A stretch of 64,000 nt of DNA from an uncultured virus (IMG/VR IMGVR_UViG_2651869816_000009) (Duplodnaviria > Heunggongvirae > Uroviricota > Caudoviricetes), in IMG/VR virus record IMGVR_UViG_2651869816_000009; one strand, 5' to 3'. Below are positions 35,201 through 54,517 of this stretch, piece after piece. The notes beneath the pieces were generated by a model. It searched no databases. It saw nothing but the letters and a program-made list of their open reading frames with translations, and had not been told where the DNA came from. Made by a program: the position numbers and the translations under genes. The first letter of the stretch is position 1, and every line of letters starts with the position of its first letter.

Positions 35201-37622
35201 CTTTTTTCATACGCAATCTTTTACCTACAGAATTTGCGTTTCTAGCAAACCTTATTCTTAATCCCCAGCCTGTGGCTTTCGGATCAATTTTAAACGTCCA
35301 TGACTCACGCTTCCATGCACTTGATGCGGGTATCCCTTTTTGCACATTCTCATTCCATACACCGTTGATAAATTGAAATAATAAAAAGTCAACTTGATAA
35401 TCATTTTGCATATCAATAGATATAGTCATATCTGTATCTTTTTCAAAGTCACCCATTTTTGTGTTATCTAAATGGAATTGATAGAAAGAGTCAGTATGAT
35501 CCGAACATTCTAATACAATGTATTCACCAGGCTGTACGATGAATTTAGCTTTATTTACTTGAGCACCGCCGATCATACCAATTGTTTGTGGTTTTTCGTT
35601 TGGGCCTGTATTAATCAGCCAATTTTCAACACCAACCGTGCGCGCTTCTACTTTTTCTAGTTTAGTAGAAATTTTGCCAGCCTCTTCTTTTATTTCGGAT
35701 GTTTCTTTTTTTAGTTCACTAATTCCAGTCCCTAGACTGTCTGTGTCTTTTTCAACTTTCTGGATCAACTTTTTATTTCCGTCCACTGTACTCTCTAAAG
35801 TATTTAGTTTTTGAGATTGCCCACTTAAACTTTTGTTCACTTCAGAAATAGAATTTGAGATACCATTGATCGACTGTTGTTGTTTAACTGTCGTTTCTTT
35901 TAATTCACTATCTGTTTTCTTTAGTTGTGATACCTCTTGTGTGAACCCATCCAAGGTTTTTCCGATCAATACTATGTTTTCCTCTATCTTAGACGCGTCA
36001 CCTTTGATTTGTCGAATACTTTCTTGCGTGCCCTTGTCATTCTCTACTAATTCTTTTGTGATCCTGTCAAGGGACTCTTGTGAGCCTTTAAGCGTTCCGA
36101 ATTCTTTTTCTAGTTCGCCAGCTTTTTTCTCCATGTTTTGTACATCTTTGTTTAATTGATTTGTCGTAGCTTGTACATCTTTTTGTACCTGGTCACGAAT
36201 TTGTTTTTCTAGTCCGCTAAAATCTTCATTAACATTTTCCCATTTACCACCACGGTATATTTTAAGGATTCCAGGTTTTCCGTTTGAAGTGTCCAACCAC
36301 AAAGACTTTCCTTCTCTTAATCCTTCTGTTGGCGGGTTTGGCCCGTCGTGGATCGTTACAGAATTTTGAGTAACCATTTCTTCTAACTTTTCTGTTATCT
36401 CTGTTACACGTTGATTAGTTTCGACAACTTCAGTTATTTTCTTTTCTTGTTCCTGTACAAGTTTATTAAGTTGATCTAATAGAGGTTTACCCGCCTTATT
36501 TTCAAGTAATCCTTGCACACGGTTATACATTTTTCGCATTTCAGCGTCATAGTCAACGATCTCGTGATATTCACCAAATGTATAACTATTTCTATCTGGG
36601 TTACTGTTCGACTCCTTACCGCCAATCGCTCGCGCTTCTAAATACAATGCAGGTGTAAACGCCGTGTCTTTAATGCCGATTGTGTCACCCTTCATGATCA
36701 ATTCATGACGTAAGCCAAACACTTCGGCAATGTCAATCGCGTCTACTTCATATCCGACTGAAGAATTCTTTCTTTTCTCCATTTCGGTTTTCATAAGAGT
36801 CATAAGACGTTTTGCGTCAATTTCTCCTTCTGTTTCTGGTTGATAGAAACCGTATTTATGTTGACCGTTCTCACTCCAGCGCTGAAATGCTTCATTATCA
36901 ACAATGTAAGGAGCGCCGTTGTTGATGCCCTCAATTGTGATCACCTCGTTATCTTGACCGCGTGCGAAACCTAATAATGCAGTGCAGATATTCTTTGTGT
37001 GTTCAATACGTGTAACGTTGATTAAGTCTTTACCTAGTTCAACCTCTTTGCGAGTGACACGACCAACCTTTTCGATTAAATCAACATACCAGCCAGTGAT
37101 AGTTGATCCCTCAACCTCTACACGATATTGCAACTCTTTGTTAAATAAAGTTGCCGTTTTCTTTAATAGAGTTAGAGGATCGGTGAACTCGTCTAATGTC
37201 ATTGTTCTAAATGATGCATAATCAATGTTGCCTGGTTGCCATTTAGTTCCTTTAGTTGCTAGCGCTACATATTGATGTGCTGTAAGACCTTCTAACTTTT
37301 GCGGACGTATAAATCCAGCCTTCCTTAACCCTGTCCATGATCCGACCGCCCTAACTGTGATAGAACGATCTTTTGCCGTTTTTTCAACTTCGTCTTCAAT
37401 AGTGTATGGAATTACATTTCCTTGTCGATCCTGGCGCAATACCAGGTTTTGTTGTTGTAACGTCACTGATTGGCGCGTCCCGTCAAAGACTTTGAATTCT
37501 AGAATGTCAACATTGTTTTTTAATTCCCATTCTCGCACATCATCCCAATAGTCTTGATCCTGGAATGTAGCCACGATGGATTGTGTTTTAAAGTCTATTA
37601 TGTGCAGTTCTGTATTTTGCAT
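32262..37622 (-). CDS. Tail spike/Tal fusion protein with CBM-like repeats and C-terminal chaperone
   Basis: Prophage tail endopeptidase-like N-terminus, coiled coil, three CBM-like modules (KLEKGSIPTDF-type ends), Peptidase_S74-like end. Confidence 0.85.
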   Translation of the reverse strand: MQNTELHIIDFKTQSIVATFQDQDYWDDVREWELKNNVDILEFKVFDGTRQSVTLQQQNLVLRQDRQGNVIPYTIEDEVEKTAKDRSITVRAVGSWTGLRKAGFIRPQKLEGLTAHQYVALATKGTKWQPGNIDYASFRTMTLDEFTDPLTLLKKTATLFNKELQYRVEVEGSTITGWYVDLIEKVGRVTRKEVELGKDLINVTRIEHTKNICTALLGFARGQDNEVITIEGINNGAPYIVDNEAFQRWSENGQHKYGFYQPETEGEIDAKRLMTLMKTEMEKRKNSSVGYEVDAIDIAEVFGLRHELIMKGDTIGIKDTAFTPALYLEARAIGGKESNSNPDRNSYTFGEYHEIVDYDAEMRKMYNRVQGLLENKAGKPLLDQLNKLVQEQEKKITEVVETNQRVTEITEKLEEMVTQNSVTIHDGPNPPTEGLREGKSLWLDTSNGKPGILKIYRGGKWENVNEDFSGLEKQIRDQVQKDVQATTNQLNKDVQNMEKKAGELEKEFGTLKGSQESLDRITKELVENDKGTQESIRQIKGDASKIEENIVLIGKTLDGFTQEVSQLKKTDSELKETTVKQQQSINGISNSISEVNKSLSGQSQKLNTLESTVDGNKKLIQKVEKDTDSLGTGISELKKETSEIKEEAGKISTKLEKVEARTVGVENWLINTGPNEKPQTIGMIGGAQVNKAKFIVQPGEYIVLECSDHTDSFYQFHLDNTKMGDFEKDTDMTISIDMQNDYQVDFLLFQFINGVWNENVQKGIPASSAWKRESWTFKIDPKATGWGLRIRFARNANSVGKRLRMKKAKLEKGSIPTDFSKSTYELEQSFNGVKERIEKTESIVNDAGDRNYVRNGDFTHYWADDGLQWDKALNGNLRAGNWSPGYNAGTTNPTKGYHMHVNDKKFGYPVVAVINKNGQFGMAKRWLGMPQEMPASFRNDFQPGDTYTVALDVWTETANNKIAVGLHHFIEGNNSMGFHSGGTPELTINPVKKWVRVHATMKLHDKSEMKKGFSLYVYGDRSADGSECYFKNVSVLKGSMPKSFAPSPEDGVKETSFNQKVTEITKDADGIKSNVKNLTELTTKHGQQITSSETQMKQLSDEISAKMTSKQVEDYVAGVGMTNVLRNADLKTGLKTPYFGVTPGTTITDSKYRSFNTFWSDKTGRTADDWQGAISNRYPCQGGEDFVGSCWFATDNPGSIDNGAYMELEQWNSAGTRIKTDRIQLKAQQTWQRAELTMKTEATTVNVTWRYYVQRNGRLRVGMPMLQRGKVASEFQVNPADIADVDALREDIATRIATEEFNKVVTQINREIKANKEGIEIKADANKVYTKQEADGTFAKESHVKTLESKILVNERNISLSVKENDIISKINMSKETISIEARRINLIGFVTAQHIKGSVLEGVRIKTAPSGKQRWVELNEQHINLYDKGVNRMYYGFYDTGNDVQPTVVLGKGSVGDLLGAMVFHQTTPGGNDYGKSFGRIGMVHRTENGNLLMNASIEFQRDGGHLLHHCWGNMQFRSNTHMRFETNGPFDFLTNWTDGASNINFTSTYNFDVMAHHQVWVKSNNTQWYKSGNGTFEFGKNGSNHAGITFNVNNPNDADIKFGTDIVLRSSNVSGYTGNMQVKNYNGTAFRDLEVRDVKHYGRISQVSQGKLKTGVKDVKFDSLEKIMALDLKSFYMKTEIERLYEMRANREPGSPVPTYADINISYGFIVEKTDPVFQVPKGDAMDMYAISAIHIDATQNINRRLIVAERVIETQNDTIKTQNDRISNLETKLEQVLELLGKE

Positions 37623-50960: not shown

Positions 50961-51448
50961 CAGCATTCACACTCCCTATAATGTTTGTTACAGTCTGGGC
51001 ATGTATCACCAATTGATCCATTGATCGTAACGTTTGCTGTTGTCTCATTTTCCTGGCGTTCGATCCATAACCTATGACGTTTACCTAACTGAATTCCCGC
51101 ATTGATTCGTTCGCCTATTGACGGCTCTATTGTTGAGATAACTTGTTCACCCATACCAACACCGCGTAACGTCTTTCCTGTAGCTTCTCCACGCATTACA
51201 GATGTTAGAAACTCTAATACTTCATTTCCGTCCGCAATGCGCTTAGAATCAACGTCAGACATCCGAGAATCAATATAAGACGAAACATTAACATTCTTTA
51301 ACAAACGAGAACTACCAGCCGATACTATAGAATCACTTTTACAATCGTAACCAGCCCTTCTATATGCTTCAGTTGCATTTCCCGTTTCTATGAAATAATC
51401 AGCAAATCTTTTTTGCCTTTCATTTAACCCATGATTCATTCTTTCCAC
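50960..51448 (-). CDS. terS: Terminase small subunit
   Basis: LNERQKRFADYF...NATEAYRRAGY, EVLEFLTSVMRGE, LGKRH. Confidence 0.93.
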   Translation of the reverse strand: MERMNHGLNERQKRFADYFIETGNATEAYRRAGYDCKSDSIVSAGSSRLLKNVNVSSYIDSRMSDVDSKRIADGNEVLEFLTSVMRGEATGKTLRGVGMGEQVISTIEPSIGERINAGIQLGKRHRLWIERQENETTANVTINGSIGDTCPDCNKHYRECEC

Positions 51449-51536
51449 CTTCCTTAATTGGTTACTACGATCGTAGTTACTCTATGATTATACCATAAAT
51501 GTTTAATAGTTTTGGATCAAGAAAAAAGAGACTGTA

Positions 51537-51875
51537 TTAATAGTCTCTTAATCGTTGCACGATATTTAATTCTACATAGTCGATAGAATCACGAGGAATG
51601 CTTACAACATTACCACTACCCGTCATGCCGTGGATCGTGTCAGCCATGTCAGTTTCATCATCTTTCATTTCTTTATAAATCATCTCTTCAGTGATTGTAA
51701 CACCTTGTTCTTTTTCGAATTCCGTGATGTCTTCATACAACATAACAGCGCGCCCGCTTTTTAAATGTACTTGCATTTGAATTTCTCGAATGTGTGTATG
51801 ATTGTCTCCAGGTTTCTTTTCTACCTCTGGTTGATCAACCGTTTCTTTTACCTTGTTTTCATTTTTATTTTCCAT
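51537..51875 (-). CDS. Hypothetical protein
   Basis: ORF; likely start MENK with RBS AAGGAAA. Confidence 0.65.
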   Translation of the reverse strand: MENKNENKVKETVDQPEVEKKPGDNHTHIREIQMQVHLKSGRAVMLYEDITEFEKEQGVTITEEMIYKEMKDDETDMADTIHGMTGSGNVVSIPRDSIDYVELNIVQRLRDY

Positions 51876-52131
51876 TTTCCTTTTCCTCCTTATATAGCTT
51901 CTTATAACCCTTATCAATGTTATGAATGCCTAACAGTGTGCCAACAACGAATAATAACCAATGATACCAGGCGTTCCCGTTCACTACAGTTTGCCAGGCG
52001 CTACCGAAAATGATTAAACCGCATACCTTTTGTAACCAGCCGTTTTTAATATCAATTGTCACACTGATCTTAACGTCTTTCCAAAATGCTTTAGTGAACA
52101 ATGGTTTTAACTTTTTCAACTTCTCTTTCAT
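51865..52131 (-). CDS. Hypothetical membrane protein
   Basis: Two TM segments, RBS AGAGGTG. Confidence 0.65.
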   Translation of the reverse strand: MKEKLKKLKPLFTKAFWKDVKISVTIDIKNGWLQKVCGLIIFGSAWQTVVNGNAWYHWLLFVVGTLLGIHNIDKGYKKLYKEEKENGK

Positions 52132-52164
52132 GTTGTCACCTCTTTTATTTTTTGCTCTTATAGA

Positions 52165-53577
52165 AGAAAAACAAGACTGGCGAAAGTCTTGTTCTCAACT
52201 TGTAACTATAAAAGAAATGGTTTAGTAGGGACTTGAACCCTATCAGACCCGTTTTAAAGGCTCTGTTATACCAGATAGCTAAACCATGATTCCCAGCGAT
52301 CAACGCCAGGATCATTTTTATTCTCCTTAGAGTCGGATATACTTTAGATCGTTATCATCCGTTTCTATCCATTTTGTGTGTGACATGATCGCCTAGTTAT
52401 CAGTTAGAATCATGTTTTATTAAACTATCGTATGTTTGATAATAACCTTTGATAGTTATTTACCGTTATAGGACGGTATCACCTGTTAGTAGAACAATAA
52501 TTACCCACCAATGCAAGTGAGTTTCTATTGTTATTTGTTTTGTGTTTATAATAGTGTCCAGGTATCTGAAAACAGCTATTAAGAGGTTTCCACACCTCAT
52601 AAGACGTACAAGGTAAAAAGGAGGTTGGGCCATGCCTAGCCCAATGTATAATCAAAAATTCCAACGGGGATAAAAATGTTATACAAAAACCTTATACGCC
52701 TTATGAGATCATGAAGTCCATTAGTAAAACGATTTGTGAGTTACCCTATAGACTTCATTTACCTCATATATGTGTTTGTGTCTCAATAAGTTTGTATATG
52801 TCCGAAAGGATCATAAAACAAGCTATTCAGTTGTATTGGTTTCCTTTAGTTTTCCATCTATGGAGAAGTTTTAAGACTCCTTATTCAGTCTGGTTTTCTG
52901 TACGTGTGTTTTCCATCACTTGAATTTTCGAGACTTTATTGTCATTTGTTACATGATGTTATTTCGCAAAAATACTACACTTTTTACTATGATCTACTTT
53001 TAACAGTAGATAAAAAATAGTAGTAACGGTTTTAACCGTCCCTTTAAAGATAGAAGTAACACTTATGACCTTTCGATCTGGCTTTCTACCCTTAAAGGGA
53101 AGGACAAAACGGTTGTCCAACCCCACCAACAAGGAGTATCTAACAATGAACAAGTAACCTATCATCTTCACAATGATCTGGAGGTAACCAGCCTCCTTTA
53201 AAGGCACAAACGAGAAGAACGTGTGTGAGTTAGCAAGGTTAATATATATAGCAATTGGAGGTGAACATATATTAAAAACTCGCTTATGCCCTTAAAGGAA
53301 GATGTCTCTTCCCTCGATTCATTTAAACAGCTTTCACCGTTCCCATTGATTCGATCCATTTCAGAAAACAAGAATTTTACGTATAGACATAGACTTTGAG
53401 CAATTATGAAATTAGATGTTGTTAGCGTATGTGTGAGCAATTACTAACAGTAAGGCGTTTTAACAAGGTTACGAAAACAAACGATGTTAAATGTAGAATA
53501 TTTTCTCTTGTATATCGAATACAAAATTTAATATGTTCTGGTTTTCCGACCAGGTAAGAGAGCGTGTGTCCCTCTTA
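52165..53577 (-). ncRNA. Candidate large structured non-coding transcript (about 1.4 kb)
   Basis: SigA promoter at 53583-53611, many hairpins, no RBS-supported ORF, terminator at about 52165-52195. Confidence 0.55.
52218..52285 (-). tRNA. tRNA-like element (non-canonical, D stem missing)
   Basis: GGTTTAG/CTAAACC acceptor stem plus A; T arm TAGGG-TTCAAGT-CCCTA; irregular anticodon arm. Confidence 0.5.
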
Positions 53578-53582
53578 CAATT

Positions 53583-53611
53583 ACTATAGTAACACCTCTA
53601 ATTCTATTCAA
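53583..53611 (-). promoter_or_regulatory. SigA promoter TTGAAT-N17-TATAGT
   Basis: Near-consensus hexamers with 17-nt spacer. Confidence 0.7.
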
Positions 53612-53700
53612 CAAGAATTGTATACTTTTAGATATTGTTTTTTATAAAGTTGGTTTTAAATTATCAGATAGTTTATTTTGACAATAAAAAAGAGCCCTTG

Positions 53701-53940
53701 TTATAAGGACTCGACAACTTCATTATATGTTCTTTGTTCATGGTATAGCCTAGCTTCAACGTTAACGGGATTTAAACCGTATCTATTAGCAAAACCTACT
53801 ATCAGTTTCTCTATATCATCCTCAATCAATACATAACCTTCTTTAGATGGTAATTCATAAGTGTAGTGTTCGTAGATTACCAATAGATCACGATATTCAT
53901 TTTCCCTCTCGTTTTGTTTAATAGTTTTAGATTCATTCAT
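53701..53940 (-). CDS. Hypothetical protein
   Basis: 79 aa, RBS AAGGAG. Confidence 0.55.
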   Translation of the reverse strand: MNESKTIKQNERENEYRDLLVIYEHYTYELPSKEGYVLIEDDIEKLIVGFANRYGLNPVNVEARLYHEQRTYNEVVESL

Positions 53941-54241
53941 GTTATTAATCTCCTTTTGGGTTTATGGTTTTAGTTTTCTTTCGATTTATTTATAAATGGA
54001 CTTATCCATTAAGGCCAAAACATCAGCGGTTTTTCTTTTAAAATCATTTAACTTCCTTATTATATATATCACGAATATTTTCAATAGTAAAATAATATTT
54101 TTTATACATAGCCTTGAACCCTTGATAACTCTACATTCTTACTTTGTATCACACACTTGACAAGATTTTTGGAATAATATAACAAACGTTGATTCTATGC
54201 ATTGTGTCAAATTGACACGATCGAATAGGTCAAATTAGTAA

Positions 54242-54517
54242 TCACGTTCTCAACCCATACAAAACTTCTCCACAATAGACATCACAAAACCCGTATTTCA
54301 TTTGATAATCGTTTCTGGCTTCTAGTTGTTTATTGCATTGTTCGCACCACCTAGCAACCCTAGTAAACTTATATCGTGGCCCGCGTTTCATCTTTGACCA
54401 GTATTTATCTTTCTCTAACATTTCTTGTAACCAGGATTCCATTTCCTTTTTATCCTTCATAGATGGTTTATACTGATCTTTAGGTAACACTTTTTTGATC
54501 TGTCTCATTACCAGCAC
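54242..54517 (-). CDS. Hypothetical zinc-finger-like protein
   Basis: CEQC...FCDVYC. Confidence 0.6.
   Translation of the reverse strand: MLVMRQIKKVLPKDQYKPSMKDKKEMESWLQEMLEKDKYWSKMKRGPRYKFTRVARWCEQCNKQLEARNDYQMKYGFCDVYCGEVLYGLRT

What the first reader, a model, noticed from the sequence alone, without database searches (positions are those of the whole stretch)
52165..53611. About 1.4 kb highly structured non-coding transcription unit upstream of the packaging genes of prophage 2
Seen: near-consensus SigA promoter (TTGAAT-N17-TATAGT), a 5' hairpin GUAAGAGGG/CUCUCUUAC, then about 1.4 kb without an RBS-supported ORF in an otherwise tightly packed genome, ending at a terminator (about 52165-52195). 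The minus strand has many stems: AACGGUGAAAGCUGUU, UCCCUUUAAGGGUAGAA.../...UUCUAUCUUUAAAGGGA, GACGGUUAAAACCGUU, AUGAAGUC/GACUUCAU, UUGGGCUAGGCAUGGCCCAA, UACCGUCCUAUAACGGUA. A 9-bp long-range pair CUGUUAGUA (53442-53450) with UACUAACAG (52483-52491) could close a domain of about 960 nt. Established: large phage ncRNAs such as GOLLD and ROOL occur in Firmicutes prophages next to tRNAs. I cannot assign this one to a family. Inference: a new large ncRNA or a polycistronic sRNA precursor.
Basis: partly seen in the sequence, partly recalled or inferred. Interest (0 to 1): 0.8.

Follow-up and report, generated by a model that had tools for sequence, protein, structure and literature searches.

The report
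Large structured phage RNA gene
A temperate phage of the Bacillus cereus group carries a 1.4-kb gene that seems to make a large, intricately folded RNA with tRNA-like parts instead of a protein, a rare kind of bacterial RNA whose job is still unknown.

Summary
The observation mostly holds. On the minus strand, 53611-52163 is a self-contained unit: a sigma-A-type promoter, a 5' hairpin, about 1.4 kb with no conserved ORF, and a conserved intrinsic terminator. It lies between the replication genes and terS of a TP21-L-like (Lwoffvirus) prophage.

- **Rfam:** no family matches, including GOLLD, ROOL, OLE and introns.
- **Relatives:** 12 distinct sequences were collected, from 7 phage records and IMG/VR contigs, at 62-98% identity.
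- **Structure:** consensus folds give 22 of 71 and 27 of 103 pairs with compensatory changes. No shuffle of 500 reached this, and slid controls gave 2-7. A structure derived from 8 sequences stays 65-82% paired in 4 held-out relatives, against 41-50% when slid.
- **Coding:** no ORF on the transcript strand is conserved.
- **Transcription:** contigs from two RNA-library runs of one sample span the whole unit.
- **tRNA-like modules:** the RNA ends in one or two modules with defective anticodon arms. Some relatives carry another inside a hairpin loop.

Best reading: a new family of large structured phage RNA, probably cut at its tRNA-like modules. The function is unproven, and the family is narrow.

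The parts
53583..53611 (-). Sigma-A-type promoter, TTGAAT-17-TATAGT. The promoter and about 40 nt upstream of the -35 are nearly invariant in the 4 Lwoffvirus sequences aligned there.
   Evidence: 9 of 12 consensus positions. (alignment A1); the L021-L023 clade has TTGTTA-18-TACAAT at the same place, read by eye.
53554..53578 (-). 5'-terminal hairpin at or near the transcript start. The outer 6 bp, GUAAGA/UCUUAC, are kept in all clades while the interior differs.
   Evidence: folds of the window and L021. (alignment). RNA-library contigs end at 53566-53568.
53538..53553 (-). Hairpin with the invariant apical sequence UCGGAAAAC. The stem CUGG/CCAG becomes GCG/CGC in L021-L023.
53197..53296 (-). 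Hairpin 1. A long stem (14-18 bp) encloses a roughly 60-nt apical part.
   Evidence: z -7.9. helix 8: 14 pairs, 4 with changes on both sides, 100% of cells paired in 12 sequences.
53256..53267 (-). UGUUCACCUCCA, a segment at the apex of hairpin 1 whose core UUCACCUCCA is invariant in all 12 sequences. It contains a CCUCC core complementary to Shine-Dalgarno sequences.
   Evidence: invariant columns. (predicted unpaired loop). CCTCC occurs 3 times against 0.38 expected.
53180..53196 (-). Hairpin GGAGG-CUGGUUA-CCUCC. In L021-L023 a different sequence forms a hairpin at the same place.
   Evidence: helix 9: 5 pairs, 2 with changes on both sides.
53040..53099 (-). Hairpin 2, a paralogue of hairpin 1 (15-nt direct repeat of the 5' arms). 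In TP21-L, L011 and L021 its loop carries an insert of about 90-100 nt with a tRNA-type T arm.
   Evidence: z -4.3. helix 12: 14 pairs, 5 with changes on both sides, 100% paired. (repeat D1). (the insert).
52790..53020 (-). Variable middle. It includes a 121-nt stretch (52833-52953) missing in L006, L008, proCM3 and in the run variants, and segments replaced outright in the TP21-L and KLEB30 types.
   Evidence: (joint 52832/52954 in X1, X2 and X3).
52711..52758 (-). Hairpin AUGAAGUC.../...GACUUCAU. The stem is kept while the interior is swapped or deleted.
   Evidence: helix 2: 7 pairs, 4 with changes on both sides.
52594..52709 (-). An 18-bp long helix (52709-52690 with 52613-52594). It encloses a GC-rich hairpin (52643-52626) and a second conserved CCUCC segment, ACCUCCUUUUU (52625-52615).
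   Evidence: Helix 3: 18 pairs, 5 with changes on both sides, 100% paired. Helix 5: 7 pairs, 3 with changes on both sides, 100% paired.
52290..52480 (-). Highly conserved 3' domain of small hairpins. The apparent SD sequence AAGGAG forms a 3-bp hairpin, CUC-UAAG-GAG, that changes to GUC-UACG-GAC in L021-L023.
   Evidence: helices 8-14.
52218..52285 (-). tRNA-like element. It has a 7-8-bp acceptor stem and a T arm with a UUCAAGU loop, but no D stem and an aberrant anticodon arm with an 8-nt loop.
   Evidence: tRNA model 16.6 bits against a cut-off of 29; mascRNA-menRNA model 23.9 against 42.5. (fold, z -2.8). (ARAGORN finds none).
52194..52215 (-). The 22-mer UCUUUUAUAGUUACAAGUUGAG, identical in 11 of 12 sequences (one substitution in L006). 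It is predicted to pair with UAAC...UGAUAACUA (about 52407-52391), closing the 3' domain.
   Evidence: helices 10-11: 11 pairs, 7 never vary, 3 vary on one side only, 1 has a single unpaired cell, so the pairing itself is untested by covariation.
52163..52193 (-). Intrinsic terminator: 9-12-bp stem, UUCGCC loop, U-tract.
   Evidence: helix 17: 12 pairs, 2 with changes on both sides, 4 one-sided, 99.3% paired.
51865..52131 (-). First downstream ORF (88 aa). It starts about 30 nt after the terminator with no room for its own promoter. It sits in a variable cargo slot and is not part of the RNA.
   Evidence: phrog_17341, unknown function; in X2 a different 765-nt segment replaces 51532-52103. L022 and L023 have no ORF of 60 aa or more here.

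Best explanation
This is the gene of a large (about 1.4 kb; 1.3-1.5 kb in the relatives) structured non-coding RNA. It belongs to a previously undescribed family found so far only in TP21-L-like temperate siphoviruses (Lwoffvirus and a sister group) of the Bacillus cereus group.

Shown here: it is a transcription unit of its own, with a sigma-A-type promoter, a 5'-terminal hairpin, a chain of conserved helices and an intrinsic terminator. It sits between the early/replication genes and the packaging genes. Its ends are conserved and its middle is variable.

Also shown: it always ends in one or two tRNA-like modules that lack a working anticodon arm. Some members carry a further insert with a tRNA-type T arm in the loop of a long hairpin.

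Inferred mechanism:
1. The host RNA polymerase makes the RNA.
2. The 5' hairpin and the 3' structures protect its ends.
3. RNase P and RNase Z cut at the tRNA-like modules, which act as punctuation. This releases a stable body of about 1.25 kb plus small tRNA-like RNAs.
4. An insert inside a hairpin loop can be excised while the stem still holds the two halves together.
5. The body then acts in trans as a folded RNA, in the manner of the phage-borne GOLLD and ROOL RNAs. Two conserved CCUCC-containing segments (one predicted to be an exposed loop) and repeated CUCACA motifs are the candidate contact sites.

What the RNA acts on is not known.
For: **Unit and context.** Promoter and terminators. 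Flanking genes: DnaB, DUF1064, TerS and TerL.

**Not a known RNA.** The 64-kb window gives 0 Rfam matches at gathering score. All 7 matches at E up to 10 in 51900-53900 fall below their cut-offs, and none is GOLLD, ROOL, OLE or an intron.

**Family.** 7 of 50,697 phage records match at 88-96% identity. IMG/VR loci L020-L023 match at 62-76%.

**Structure.**
- Minus-strand folding z-scores reach -7.9 and are weaker on the plus strand.
- 3' block: 27 of 103 pairs have changes on both sides, against 15.7 +/- 2.3 in shuffles (0 of 500 reach it) and 3-7 when slid. 97.9% of cells are paired.
- 5' block: 22 of 71 pairs, against 11.9 +/- 2.2 (0 of 500) and 2-5 when slid.
- Held-out test: 389 pairs predicted from the 8 Lwoffvirus sequences are 82% paired in L020 and 65-66% paired in L021-L023. 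Slid controls give 41-50%.
- Many conserved G-U pairs exist only on the minus strand.

**Not coding.** None of the 8 transcript-strand ORFs of 20 aa or more has an SD, and none is intact in all 7 relatives. The SD-led 56-codon frame is broken by a 4-nt indel.

**RNA evidence.** In two RNA-library runs of one sample, contigs cover the unit. A 2102-nt contig runs from 53568 to 52058 and continues beyond. Contigs of both runs end at 53566-53568 with no loose end, while the probably-DNA run X2 continues through the promoter.

**tRNA-like modules.** (45.6 bits in KLEB30; 24.3 bits in L021). ARAGORN calls none.

**A separate late promoter.** terS has its own promoter-like TGGTATAAT with a palindrome after a second terminator, so the RNA unit need not be the late leader (read by eye).
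Against: - Only 12 distinct sequences in about four lineages are available. Most double changes come from one clade of three sequences, so independent events are few.
- The tested structures were derived from the same alignments by RNAalifold, which favours covariation.
- In the held-out clade a third of the predicted pairs fail, so much of the full fold is uncertain or misaligned.
- The RNA evidence consists of assembled contigs from one sample. It shows no strand, no ends and no level, and DNA in the library cannot be excluded.
- No processing site was observed. Cutting by RNase P/Z is inferred from shape alone, and the window's tRNA-like element scores only 16.6 bits.
- The contig that spans the RNA also crosses the terminator into the downstream genes, as a leader would.
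- No extended target for the conserved CACCUCC loop exists in the window.
- The family is narrow: absent from 185,579 representative genomes by two exact patterns and from plasmids.
Confidence: 0.6

Rival explanations
1. It is a long cis-acting leader. The promoter at 53611 drives the downstream accessory ORFs, and perhaps the late genes. The 1.4 kb of structure and its terminator set how much transcription gets through, by attenuation or antitermination, as the short terminated late leader of lambdoid phages does. The hairpin with the invariant UCGGAAAAC apex would be the site where an antitermination factor loads.
For: - The 88-aa ORF begins about 30 nt after the terminator, with no room for a promoter of its own.
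- A 2102-nt contig in an RNA library runs across the terminator and 710 nt further.
- Terminator-like sites are enriched: 6 found against 1.2 +/- 1.2 expected in 51500-54300.
- The unit sits just where late regulation is expected, and the early operon ends in its own terminator at 53712-53692.
Against: - In L022 and L023 no ORF of 60 aa or more lies between the RNA and terS, yet the RNA is kept.
- terS has its own promoter-like TGGTATAAT behind a second terminator.
- The cargo downstream is variable while the RNA is constant.
- tRNA-like modules would invite cleavage that severs a leader from its message.
- A leader does not need 1.4 kb of conserved helices.
- No antiterminator-like protein was recognised nearby.
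- The gene just upstream is not the same in all clades.
Confidence: 0.2
2. It is a polycistronic precursor. The primary transcript is only a carrier, cut into several independent small RNAs: tRNA-like RNAs and hairpin sRNAs. On this view the region is a decayed or repurposed phage tRNA array.
For: - There are one to three tRNA-like modules per member, at two different positions.
- The architecture is modular, with whole segments swapped or deleted between phages.
- Many hairpins are self-contained.
Against: - tRNA-like modules make up less than 15% of the length.
- None is called by ARAGORN, and all have defective anticodon arms.
- Helices spanning 100 nt or more are conserved without a broken pair, which suggests a larger fold.
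- An assembled contig spans the whole unit, although contigs cannot show processing.
Confidence: 0.12
3. It works as DNA: an origin, a packaging accessory site or an operator array. The repeated CACAC and CTTTAAAG motifs would be protein-binding sites.
For: - CACAC occurs 7 times against 1.15 expected (0 of 300 shuffles reach it). CTTTAA occurs 5 times against 1.1.
- The region is close to the packaging genes.
Against: - Compensatory changes keep the pairing, not the sequence.
- Conserved G-U pairs and stronger folding on the minus strand alone point to RNA.
- The unit has its own promoter and terminator.
- The CTTTAA motifs are simply the arms of hairpins 1 and 2.
Confidence: 0.04
4. It is a cluster of small protein genes, as the deposited annotations have it: gp51-gp54 in TP21-L, ORF33 in proCM3, gp55-gp56 in KLEB30-3S.
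For: The GenBank records annotate ORFs of 40-71 codons inside the region. One window ORF has a good SD sequence.
Against: - The annotated ORFs differ in place and strand between records.
- No transcript-strand ORF is intact in all relatives, and frames are broken by indels.
- Five ORFs tested have no Pfam family.
Confidence: 0.03

Closest known systems
GOLLD RNA (Rfam family; Weinberg 2009. Passages of PMC5737381 and of bioRxiv 10.1101/2024.12.08.627333 were read)
   Same: Both are large structured RNAs encoded in prophages of Firmicutes and associated with tRNAs. In GOLLD the tRNAs sometimes sit inside a linker region of the RNA. Conservation is uneven along the length in both, and both have no known function.
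   Different: There is no match to the Rfam model even at E up to 10. This RNA is longer: about 1.4 kb, against "many exceeding 800 nt". Here both ends are conserved and the middle varies, whereas GOLLD has a conserved 3' region and a variable 5' region. The linked elements here are defective tRNA look-alikes, not tRNAs. Oligomer or cage formation is untested.
ROOL RNA (Rfam family; PMC5737381, passages read)
   Same: Both are large, ornate, phage-associated and often near tRNAs. Both lack a known protein partner or function.
   Different: There is no Rfam match. ROOL averages 581 nt, spans several phyla and has multistem junctions and pseudoknots. This family is confined to one group of Bacillus phages, and no pseudoknot has been shown.
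MALAT1 / MEN-beta with their 3' tRNA-like mascRNA (Rfam RF01684). The biology is recalled, not read here.
   Same: A long non-coding RNA ends in a tRNA-like element with a reduced anticodon arm. The window's element matches that model end to end (23.9 bits). In that system RNase P makes the 3' end of the long RNA.
   Different: That system is eukaryotic and unrelated. The score is below the cut-off of 42.5. This is a resemblance of shape and a lead for the mechanism, not homology.
Immunity RNAs of phages P1/P7 (C4) and P4 (CI), cut out of longer transcripts by RNase P. Recalled, not read here.
   Same: They are phage regulatory RNAs matured from a longer precursor by tRNA-processing enzymes, and they act by pairing with phage messages.
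   Different: Those RNAs are about 70-80 nt. No target complementary to the conserved loops was found in the window.
Late-operon leader of lambdoid phages: a constitutive promoter, a short terminated RNA and antitermination. Recalled, not read here.
   Same: The position between early and late genes is the same, as is a strong promoter followed by a terminator. In Shiga-toxin phages tRNA genes lie in that leader.
   Different: This RNA is about 7 times longer, with conserved structure. terS has its own promoter-like site. No antiterminator was recognised.
Listeria sRNA rliI (Rfam RF01487)
   Same: The TP21-L copy matches the full model over hairpin 1 (33.5 bits, E 1e-6).
   Different: The score is below the cut-off of 45. 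The window's own copy gives no match at E up to 10. The match rests on a long AU-rich hairpin and on a variable segment, so it is probably likeness of shape only.

Membership tests
GOLLD RNA | Match to the Rfam covariance model | tested here: not met
   0 matches at gathering score in the window. It is not among the 7 matches at E up to 10 in 51900-53900, nor in relatives.
GOLLD RNA | Large RNA in prophages, next to or containing tRNAs | tested here: inconclusive
   The prophage context and size are met. The associated elements are tRNA-like, not tRNAs: ARAGORN finds 0, and tRNA-model scores are 16.6-45.6 bits.
GOLLD RNA | Universally conserved 3' region, less conserved 5' region | tested here: not met
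   Both the 5' roughly 230 nt and the 3' roughly 330 nt are conserved, and the middle varies.
GOLLD / ROOL RNA | Self-assembly into homo-oligomeric cages | not testable with these tools
   This needs native gels, SEC-MALS or cryo-EM.
ROOL RNA | Match to the Rfam covariance model | tested here: not met
tRNA | Cloverleaf with anticodon arm, recognised by ARAGORN or by Rfam RF00005 at 29 bits or more | tested here: not met
   Window element 52218-52285: ARAGORN finds none; 16.6 bits. The fold lacks a D stem and has an 8-nt loop in a mismatched anticodon arm. Only the extra element of KLEB30 passes (45.6 bits), and its anticodon loop region is 18 nt.
rliI sRNA (RF01487) | Rfam score of 45 bits or more | tested here: not met
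   33.5 bits in TP21-L. No match in the window at E up to 10.
Type III toxin-antitoxin antitoxin RNA | Tandem direct repeats of about 34-36 nt, then a terminator, then a toxin gene | tested here: not met
   0 tandem repeats at score 30 or more and only short two-copy direct repeats. The downstream ORFs are variable, or absent in L022 and L023.
Late-operon leader with antitermination | The only promoter available to the late genes, with late genes directly behind its terminator | tested here: inconclusive
   There is no promoter room before the 88-aa ORF. However, a second terminator and a promoter-like TGGTATAAT precede terS (the promoter was read by eye).
Protein-coding small-ORF cluster | ORFs conserved in frame with ribosome-binding sites | tested here: not met
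   0 of 8 transcript-strand ORFs of 20 aa or more have an SD or are intact in all 7 relatives. The one SD-led frame is broken by a 4-nt indel.

The most novel reading that the evidence does not exclude
This is a new class of giant ornate phage RNA, larger than GOLLD. It works as one folded particle whose tRNA-like inserts are cut out by RNase P/Z while long stems hold the pieces together, as in fragmented rRNAs. It is made from the prophage in lysogens, and through its conserved CCUCC segments and CUCACA motifs it binds ribosomes or messenger RNAs, or self-assembles as GOLLD and ROOL do, to the phage's benefit.
Probability: 0.3. Interest if true: 0.85.

Novelty: new variant of a known kind. 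Interest (0 to 1): 0.7.

Why it matters
Bacterial non-coding RNAs above 500 nt with conserved structure are very few: rRNAs, group II introns, GOLLD, ROOL, OLE and a handful more. Each has opened new biochemistry. This candidate is about 1.4 kb. It sits in cultivable, inducible phages (TP21-L, BMBtp2, proCM3, KLEB30-3S) of a genetically tractable host group, so it can be deleted, mapped and purified directly. That has been hard for GOLLD and ROOL.

Its built-in tRNA look-alikes offer a testable link between large phage RNAs and the tRNA-processing machinery. That could explain why such RNAs are so often found beside tRNAs.

It also corrects the annotation of at least five published phage genomes, which call small hypothetical proteins in this stretch.

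Tried and rejected
- **Window genome.** No genome is held for this window, so searches of relatives' genomes were not possible.
- **Pattern scans.** Two exact-pattern scans of 185,579 representative genomes found nothing. Plasmids gave no match. The metagenome scan returned 1 locus, the same contig name-length as an IMG/VR one. A blastn search with the divergent clade found only the same 7 phage records.
- **Scan notebook.** The three look-ups found nothing.
- **Whole-transcript shuffle test.** The 1736-column alignment was too long for the consensus-fold tool. It was folded in a script and in two blocks instead.
Rejected: chance level and not conserved.
- **rliI.** Rejected as likeness of shape.
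- **A conserved protein partner upstream.** Rejected. The 79-aa gene is replaced by an unrelated, HTH-looking 80-aa gene in L021 and L023.
- **A specific target for the conserved loops.** The full complement of the CACCUCC loop (up to 2 mismatches) and of the CCUCCUUUUU segment (up to 1 mismatch) occurs nowhere else in the window in a meaningful place. The window may not hold the whole prophage, and it holds no host targets.
- **A second copy, or an analogous RNA, in the other prophage of the window.** None was found.
- **An internal promoter in the near-invariant 22-mer (it holds TATAGT).** No -35 or TG extension is present. Judged by eye and left open.
- **Reads.** No contig of X1 or X3 covers 53618-53818 or 51608-52009. 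The first gap fits a start at the predicted promoter, and the second is a replaced segment. A part without cover proves nothing, and contig depths cannot rank genes. The higher depth figures on the RNA (11-113) than on the neighbours (1-12) in X1 and X3 are therefore not used as evidence.
- **Soil metatranscriptome.** Run X4 holds three short pieces at depth 2-3.5, which says nothing on expression.
- **Literature.** Searches for TP21-L, Lwoffvirus, BMBtp2/proCM3, prophage plus tRNA-like plus noncoding RNA, and structured noncoding RNA plus Bacillus cereus found no description of this RNA. A term search of the TP21-L paper for gp51, gp55, tRNA, intergenic, noncoding and cos gave 0 hits. The proCM3 paper itself was not found in the library.
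Full report
**1. What is there**

Read on the minus strand, the stretch runs as follows:
- A terminator closes the upstream 79-codon gene (53712-53692).
- A promoter-like site TTGAAT-17-TATAGT lies at 53611-53583 (9 of 12 consensus positions). Promoter-like sites as such are not enriched in the region: 3 were found against 11.7 +/- 3.5 in shuffles.
- A hairpin starts within a few bases of the expected start (53578-53554).
- About 1.4 kb follows without a convincing gene.
- A stem-loop with a U-tract lies at 52193-52163.
- An 88-codon ORF starts only about 30 nt later (52131).

The surroundings are a unidirectional phage module: DnaB-like helicase 58098-56764, DUF1064 55883-55284, small ORFs, this region, two small ORFs, TerS 51448-50960 and TerL 50717-49377.

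The DNA is 88-96% identical to 7 records of five Bacillus cereus-group phages of the genus Lwoffvirus: TP21-L, BMBtp2, proCM3, BMBtpLA3 and KLEB30-3S. Their depositors annotated differing small hypothetical ORFs here, or nothing.

**2. Is it more than chance?**

In 200-nt windows the minus strand folds 1.6 to 7.9 standard deviations better than dinucleotide shuffles in 13 of the 15 windows starting at 52100-53500. The windows starting at 52800 and 53300 are near 0. Most flanking coding windows lie between -1.7 and +2.9, apart from 51100-51599 just before terS. The plus strand is consistently weaker.

Single hairpins reach z -7.9 (hairpin 1) and -4.3 (hairpin 2).

286 of 300 shuffles have at least one such distant 9-mer complement. 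In relatives the partner is deleted or mismatched.

**3. Not a known RNA, not coding**

Rfam 15 gives no match at gathering score in the whole window. At E up to 10 over 51900-53900 there are 7 matches, all below their cut-offs, and none is GOLLD, ROOL, OLE or an intron. ARAGORN finds no tRNA in the window or in any relative.

Of the 8 transcript-strand ORFs of 20 or more codons, none has a Shine-Dalgarno sequence and none is intact in all 7 Lwoffvirus relatives.

One 56-codon frame (52315-52145) does follow AAGGAG. A 4-nt indel truncates it to 10 codons in TP21-L, L011, L008 and L020. In the distant clade the AUG is gone, while the AAGGAG turns out to be one arm of a covarying 3-bp hairpin (CUC-UAAG-GAG changing to GUC-UACG-GAC).

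There are no tandem repeats.

**4. The family**

No genome is held for the window. Collection scans gave these results:
- Nothing in plasmids.
- Nothing in 185,579 representative genomes with two exact patterns.
- 6 and 9 IMG/VR contigs.
- One metagenome contig.

A search with TerS brought four IMG/VR prophage contigs with TerS only 76-77% identical (L020-L023). Their upstream DNA is homologous to the region along its length, at 75% (L020) and 62-70% (L021-L023).

This makes 12 distinct sequences in about four lineages (for the first eight). The ends are conserved and the middle (about 53020-52790) is a mosaic of deletions and replacements.

In L022 and L023 no ORF of 60 codons or more lies between the element and terS. 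The upstream gene is unrelated in L021 and L023. So the RNA region is the constant and its neighbours vary.

**5. Conserved structure**

*Consensus folds of the 12 sequences*

| Block | Pairs with changes on both sides | Shuffled | Slid | Cells paired |
|---|---|---|---|---|
| 5' block | 22 of 71 | 11.9 +/- 2.2; 0 of 500 reach it | 2-5 | 98.4% |
| 3' block | 27 of 103 | 15.7 +/- 2.3; 0 of 500 reach it | 3-7 | 97.9% |

*Best helices*

| Helix | Window coordinates | Pairs | Both-sides changes | Paired |
|---|---|---|---|---|
| Hairpin 1 | 53296-53197 | 14 | 4 | 100% |
| Hairpin 2 | 53099-53040 | 14 | 5 | 100% |
| Long helix | 52709-52690 with 52613-52594 | 18 | 5 | 100% |
| Inner hairpin | 52643-52626 | 7 | 3 | 100% |
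| Terminator | 52193-52163 | 12 | 2 | 99.3% |

These structures were derived from the same alignments, so I also ran a held-out test. The fold predicted from the 8 Lwoffvirus sequences alone has 391 pairs, of which 22 covary against 1-5 when slid. Applied to the four unseen relatives, its 389 mappable pairs are 82% paired in L020 and 65-66% paired in L021-L023. Slid controls give 41-50%.

The core helices are therefore real. A third of the detailed fold is either wrong or lost in alignment of the variable parts.

Many conserved pairs are G-U, which exist only in a minus-strand RNA.

The 5' hairpin and the next hairpin (invariant apex UCGGAAAAC) are kept in both clades with different stems.

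**6. tRNA-like modules**

- The window RNA ends in a 68-nt element (52285-52218). It has a 7-8-bp acceptor stem and a textbook T arm, but no D stem and a mismatched anticodon arm with an 8-nt loop. It scores 16.6 bits on the tRNA model and matches the model of the mascRNA tRNA-like RNA end to end at 23.9 bits.
- KLEB30, L020, L021 and L023 carry a second type right behind or instead of it. It scores 45.6 bits in KLEB30 and 24.3 in L021, and its anticodon loop region is swollen to 18-19 nt.
- L021 and L023 have a mini-cloverleaf with a 2-bp anticodon arm.
- TP21-L, L011 and L021 carry a further insert of about 90-100 nt with a GGGUUCGA(A/U)UCC T arm in the loop of hairpin 2. This one is judged by eye only: the tRNA model does not report it at E up to 1.

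A near-invariant 22-mer and the terminator follow the last module in every member.

**7. Is it transcribed?**

Of 24 listed public runs, 20 hold at least part of the stretch and 13 are on record as RNA, from 18 studies. Four were laid.

Two RNA-library runs of one sample (X1, X3) have contigs over the whole unit:
- A 2102-nt contig runs from 53568 to 52058 and 710 nt further into that strain's different downstream genes. It skips 52833-52953, as several relatives do.
- The contigs of both runs end at 53566-53568, 8-10 nt inside the expected transcript start, with no loose end.
- The contig of X2 (probably DNA, 37 kb) runs on through the promoter.

This is one study and it is assembled contigs. 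It fits the predicted start, but it shows neither strand nor ends, and it does not exclude DNA in the library.

**8. How it most likely works**

*Shown:* an autonomous promoter-to-terminator unit; conserved helices; no conserved ORF; tRNA-like modules at fixed places; conserved segments, namely UGUUCACCUCCA at the apex of hairpin 1 (predicted unpaired) and ACCUCCUUUUU inside the long helix. CCTCC occurs 3 times against 0.38 expected and CACAC 7 times against 1.15.

*Inferred:*
- The RNA is made by host sigma-A polymerase.
- Its 5' hairpin guards it against 5' exonuclease, as 5' stem-loops do in Bacillus subtilis (recalled).
- The tRNA look-alikes, useless for decoding, are recognition marks for RNase P and RNase Z. 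These enzymes trim the 3' end and excise the hairpin-2 insert while the 15-bp stem keeps the halves together.
- That an insert is tolerated exactly in a loop argues that the fold, not the continuity of the chain, is what selection keeps. This favours an RNA acting as a folded particle.

I put about 0.85 on "a real, transcribed, structured non-coding RNA family" and about 0.6 on the trans-acting, processed-RNA reading as a whole.

The main rival (0.2) is a cis-acting leader for the variable accessory ORFs or the late genes.
- For it: there is no promoter room before the 88-codon ORF, and a contig crosses the terminator.
- Against it: members exist with nothing to lead, and a second terminator (51549-51526) and a promoter-like TGGTATAAT with a palindrome stand directly before terS (by eye).

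The two readings are not exclusive.

**9. Comparison with what is known**

In kind it resembles GOLLD and ROOL: large, phage-borne, tRNA-associated and of unknown function. GOLLD sometimes has tRNAs in a linker (passages read). It is not a member of either family. The models do not match, and the pattern of conservation differs.

The tRNA-like 3' end recalls MALAT1/mascRNA, and the RNase P-matured immunity RNAs of P1 and P4 (recalled). Those are leads for the mechanism, not relatives.

I found no description of this RNA in the held literature.

**10. Verdict**

This is a well-supported new family of large structured phage RNA, narrow in distribution, with an open function. It sits in phages that can be grown and engineered, so the open questions are directly testable.

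Noticed in passing
L003 3948-4028 (phage vB_BceS_KLEB30-3S, record about 36099-36179): A tRNA-like gene passes the Rfam tRNA cut-off (45.6 bits against 29). The record and its announcement state that the phage has no tRNA genes. ARAGORN also misses it, because the anticodon loop region is 18 nt long.
   Followed up: partly
window 51449-51549, minus strand: Directly before terS lies a terminator (51549-51526). After it comes a promoter-like extended -10, TGGTATAAT, followed at once by the palindrome GTAACTACGATCGTAGTAAC. The promoter-like site is conserved in the window, L016 and L020, but not clearly in L021-L023. It is a candidate late promoter with an operator or a 5' hairpin.
   Followed up: partly
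window 51532-52131, minus strand: The two ORFs between the RNA and terS (88 aa with two hydrophobic stretches; 126 aa) have no known family. The segment is replaced by other genes in relatives: a 765-nt unlike segment in run X2, different ORFs in KLEB30-3S, and no ORF of 60 aa or more in L022 and L023. It looks like a variable accessory-gene slot fed by read-through of the RNA's terminator.
   Followed up: partly
L001 2877-3114 (TP21-L): There is a full-length match to the Listeria sRNA rliI model (33.5 bits, cut-off 45, E 1e-6) over hairpin 1. The window's own near-identical copy gives none. It is probably likeness of shape.
   Followed up: partly
window 52165-53576, minus strand: CACAC occurs 7 times against 1.15 expected (0 of 300 shuffles reach it). 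Three occurrences, in the form CUCACA(C)A, are conserved across clades in unpaired stretches. No known binding partner comes to mind.
   Followed up: partly
L001, L002, L003 (GenBank records EU887664, KF296717, MT136606): The small hypothetical proteins annotated inside the region are probably not genes. They are gp51-gp54 in TP21-L, ORF33 on the opposite strand in proCM3, and gp55-gp56 in KLEB30-3S. They differ in place and strand between records and are not conserved in frame.
   Followed up: yes
L021 2350-2592 and L023 2633-2875: In these two relatives the gene just upstream of the RNA promoter is an unrelated 80-aa protein that looks like a small helix-turn-helix DNA-binding protein. It replaces the 79-aa phrog_18177 protein of the window.
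   Followed up: no
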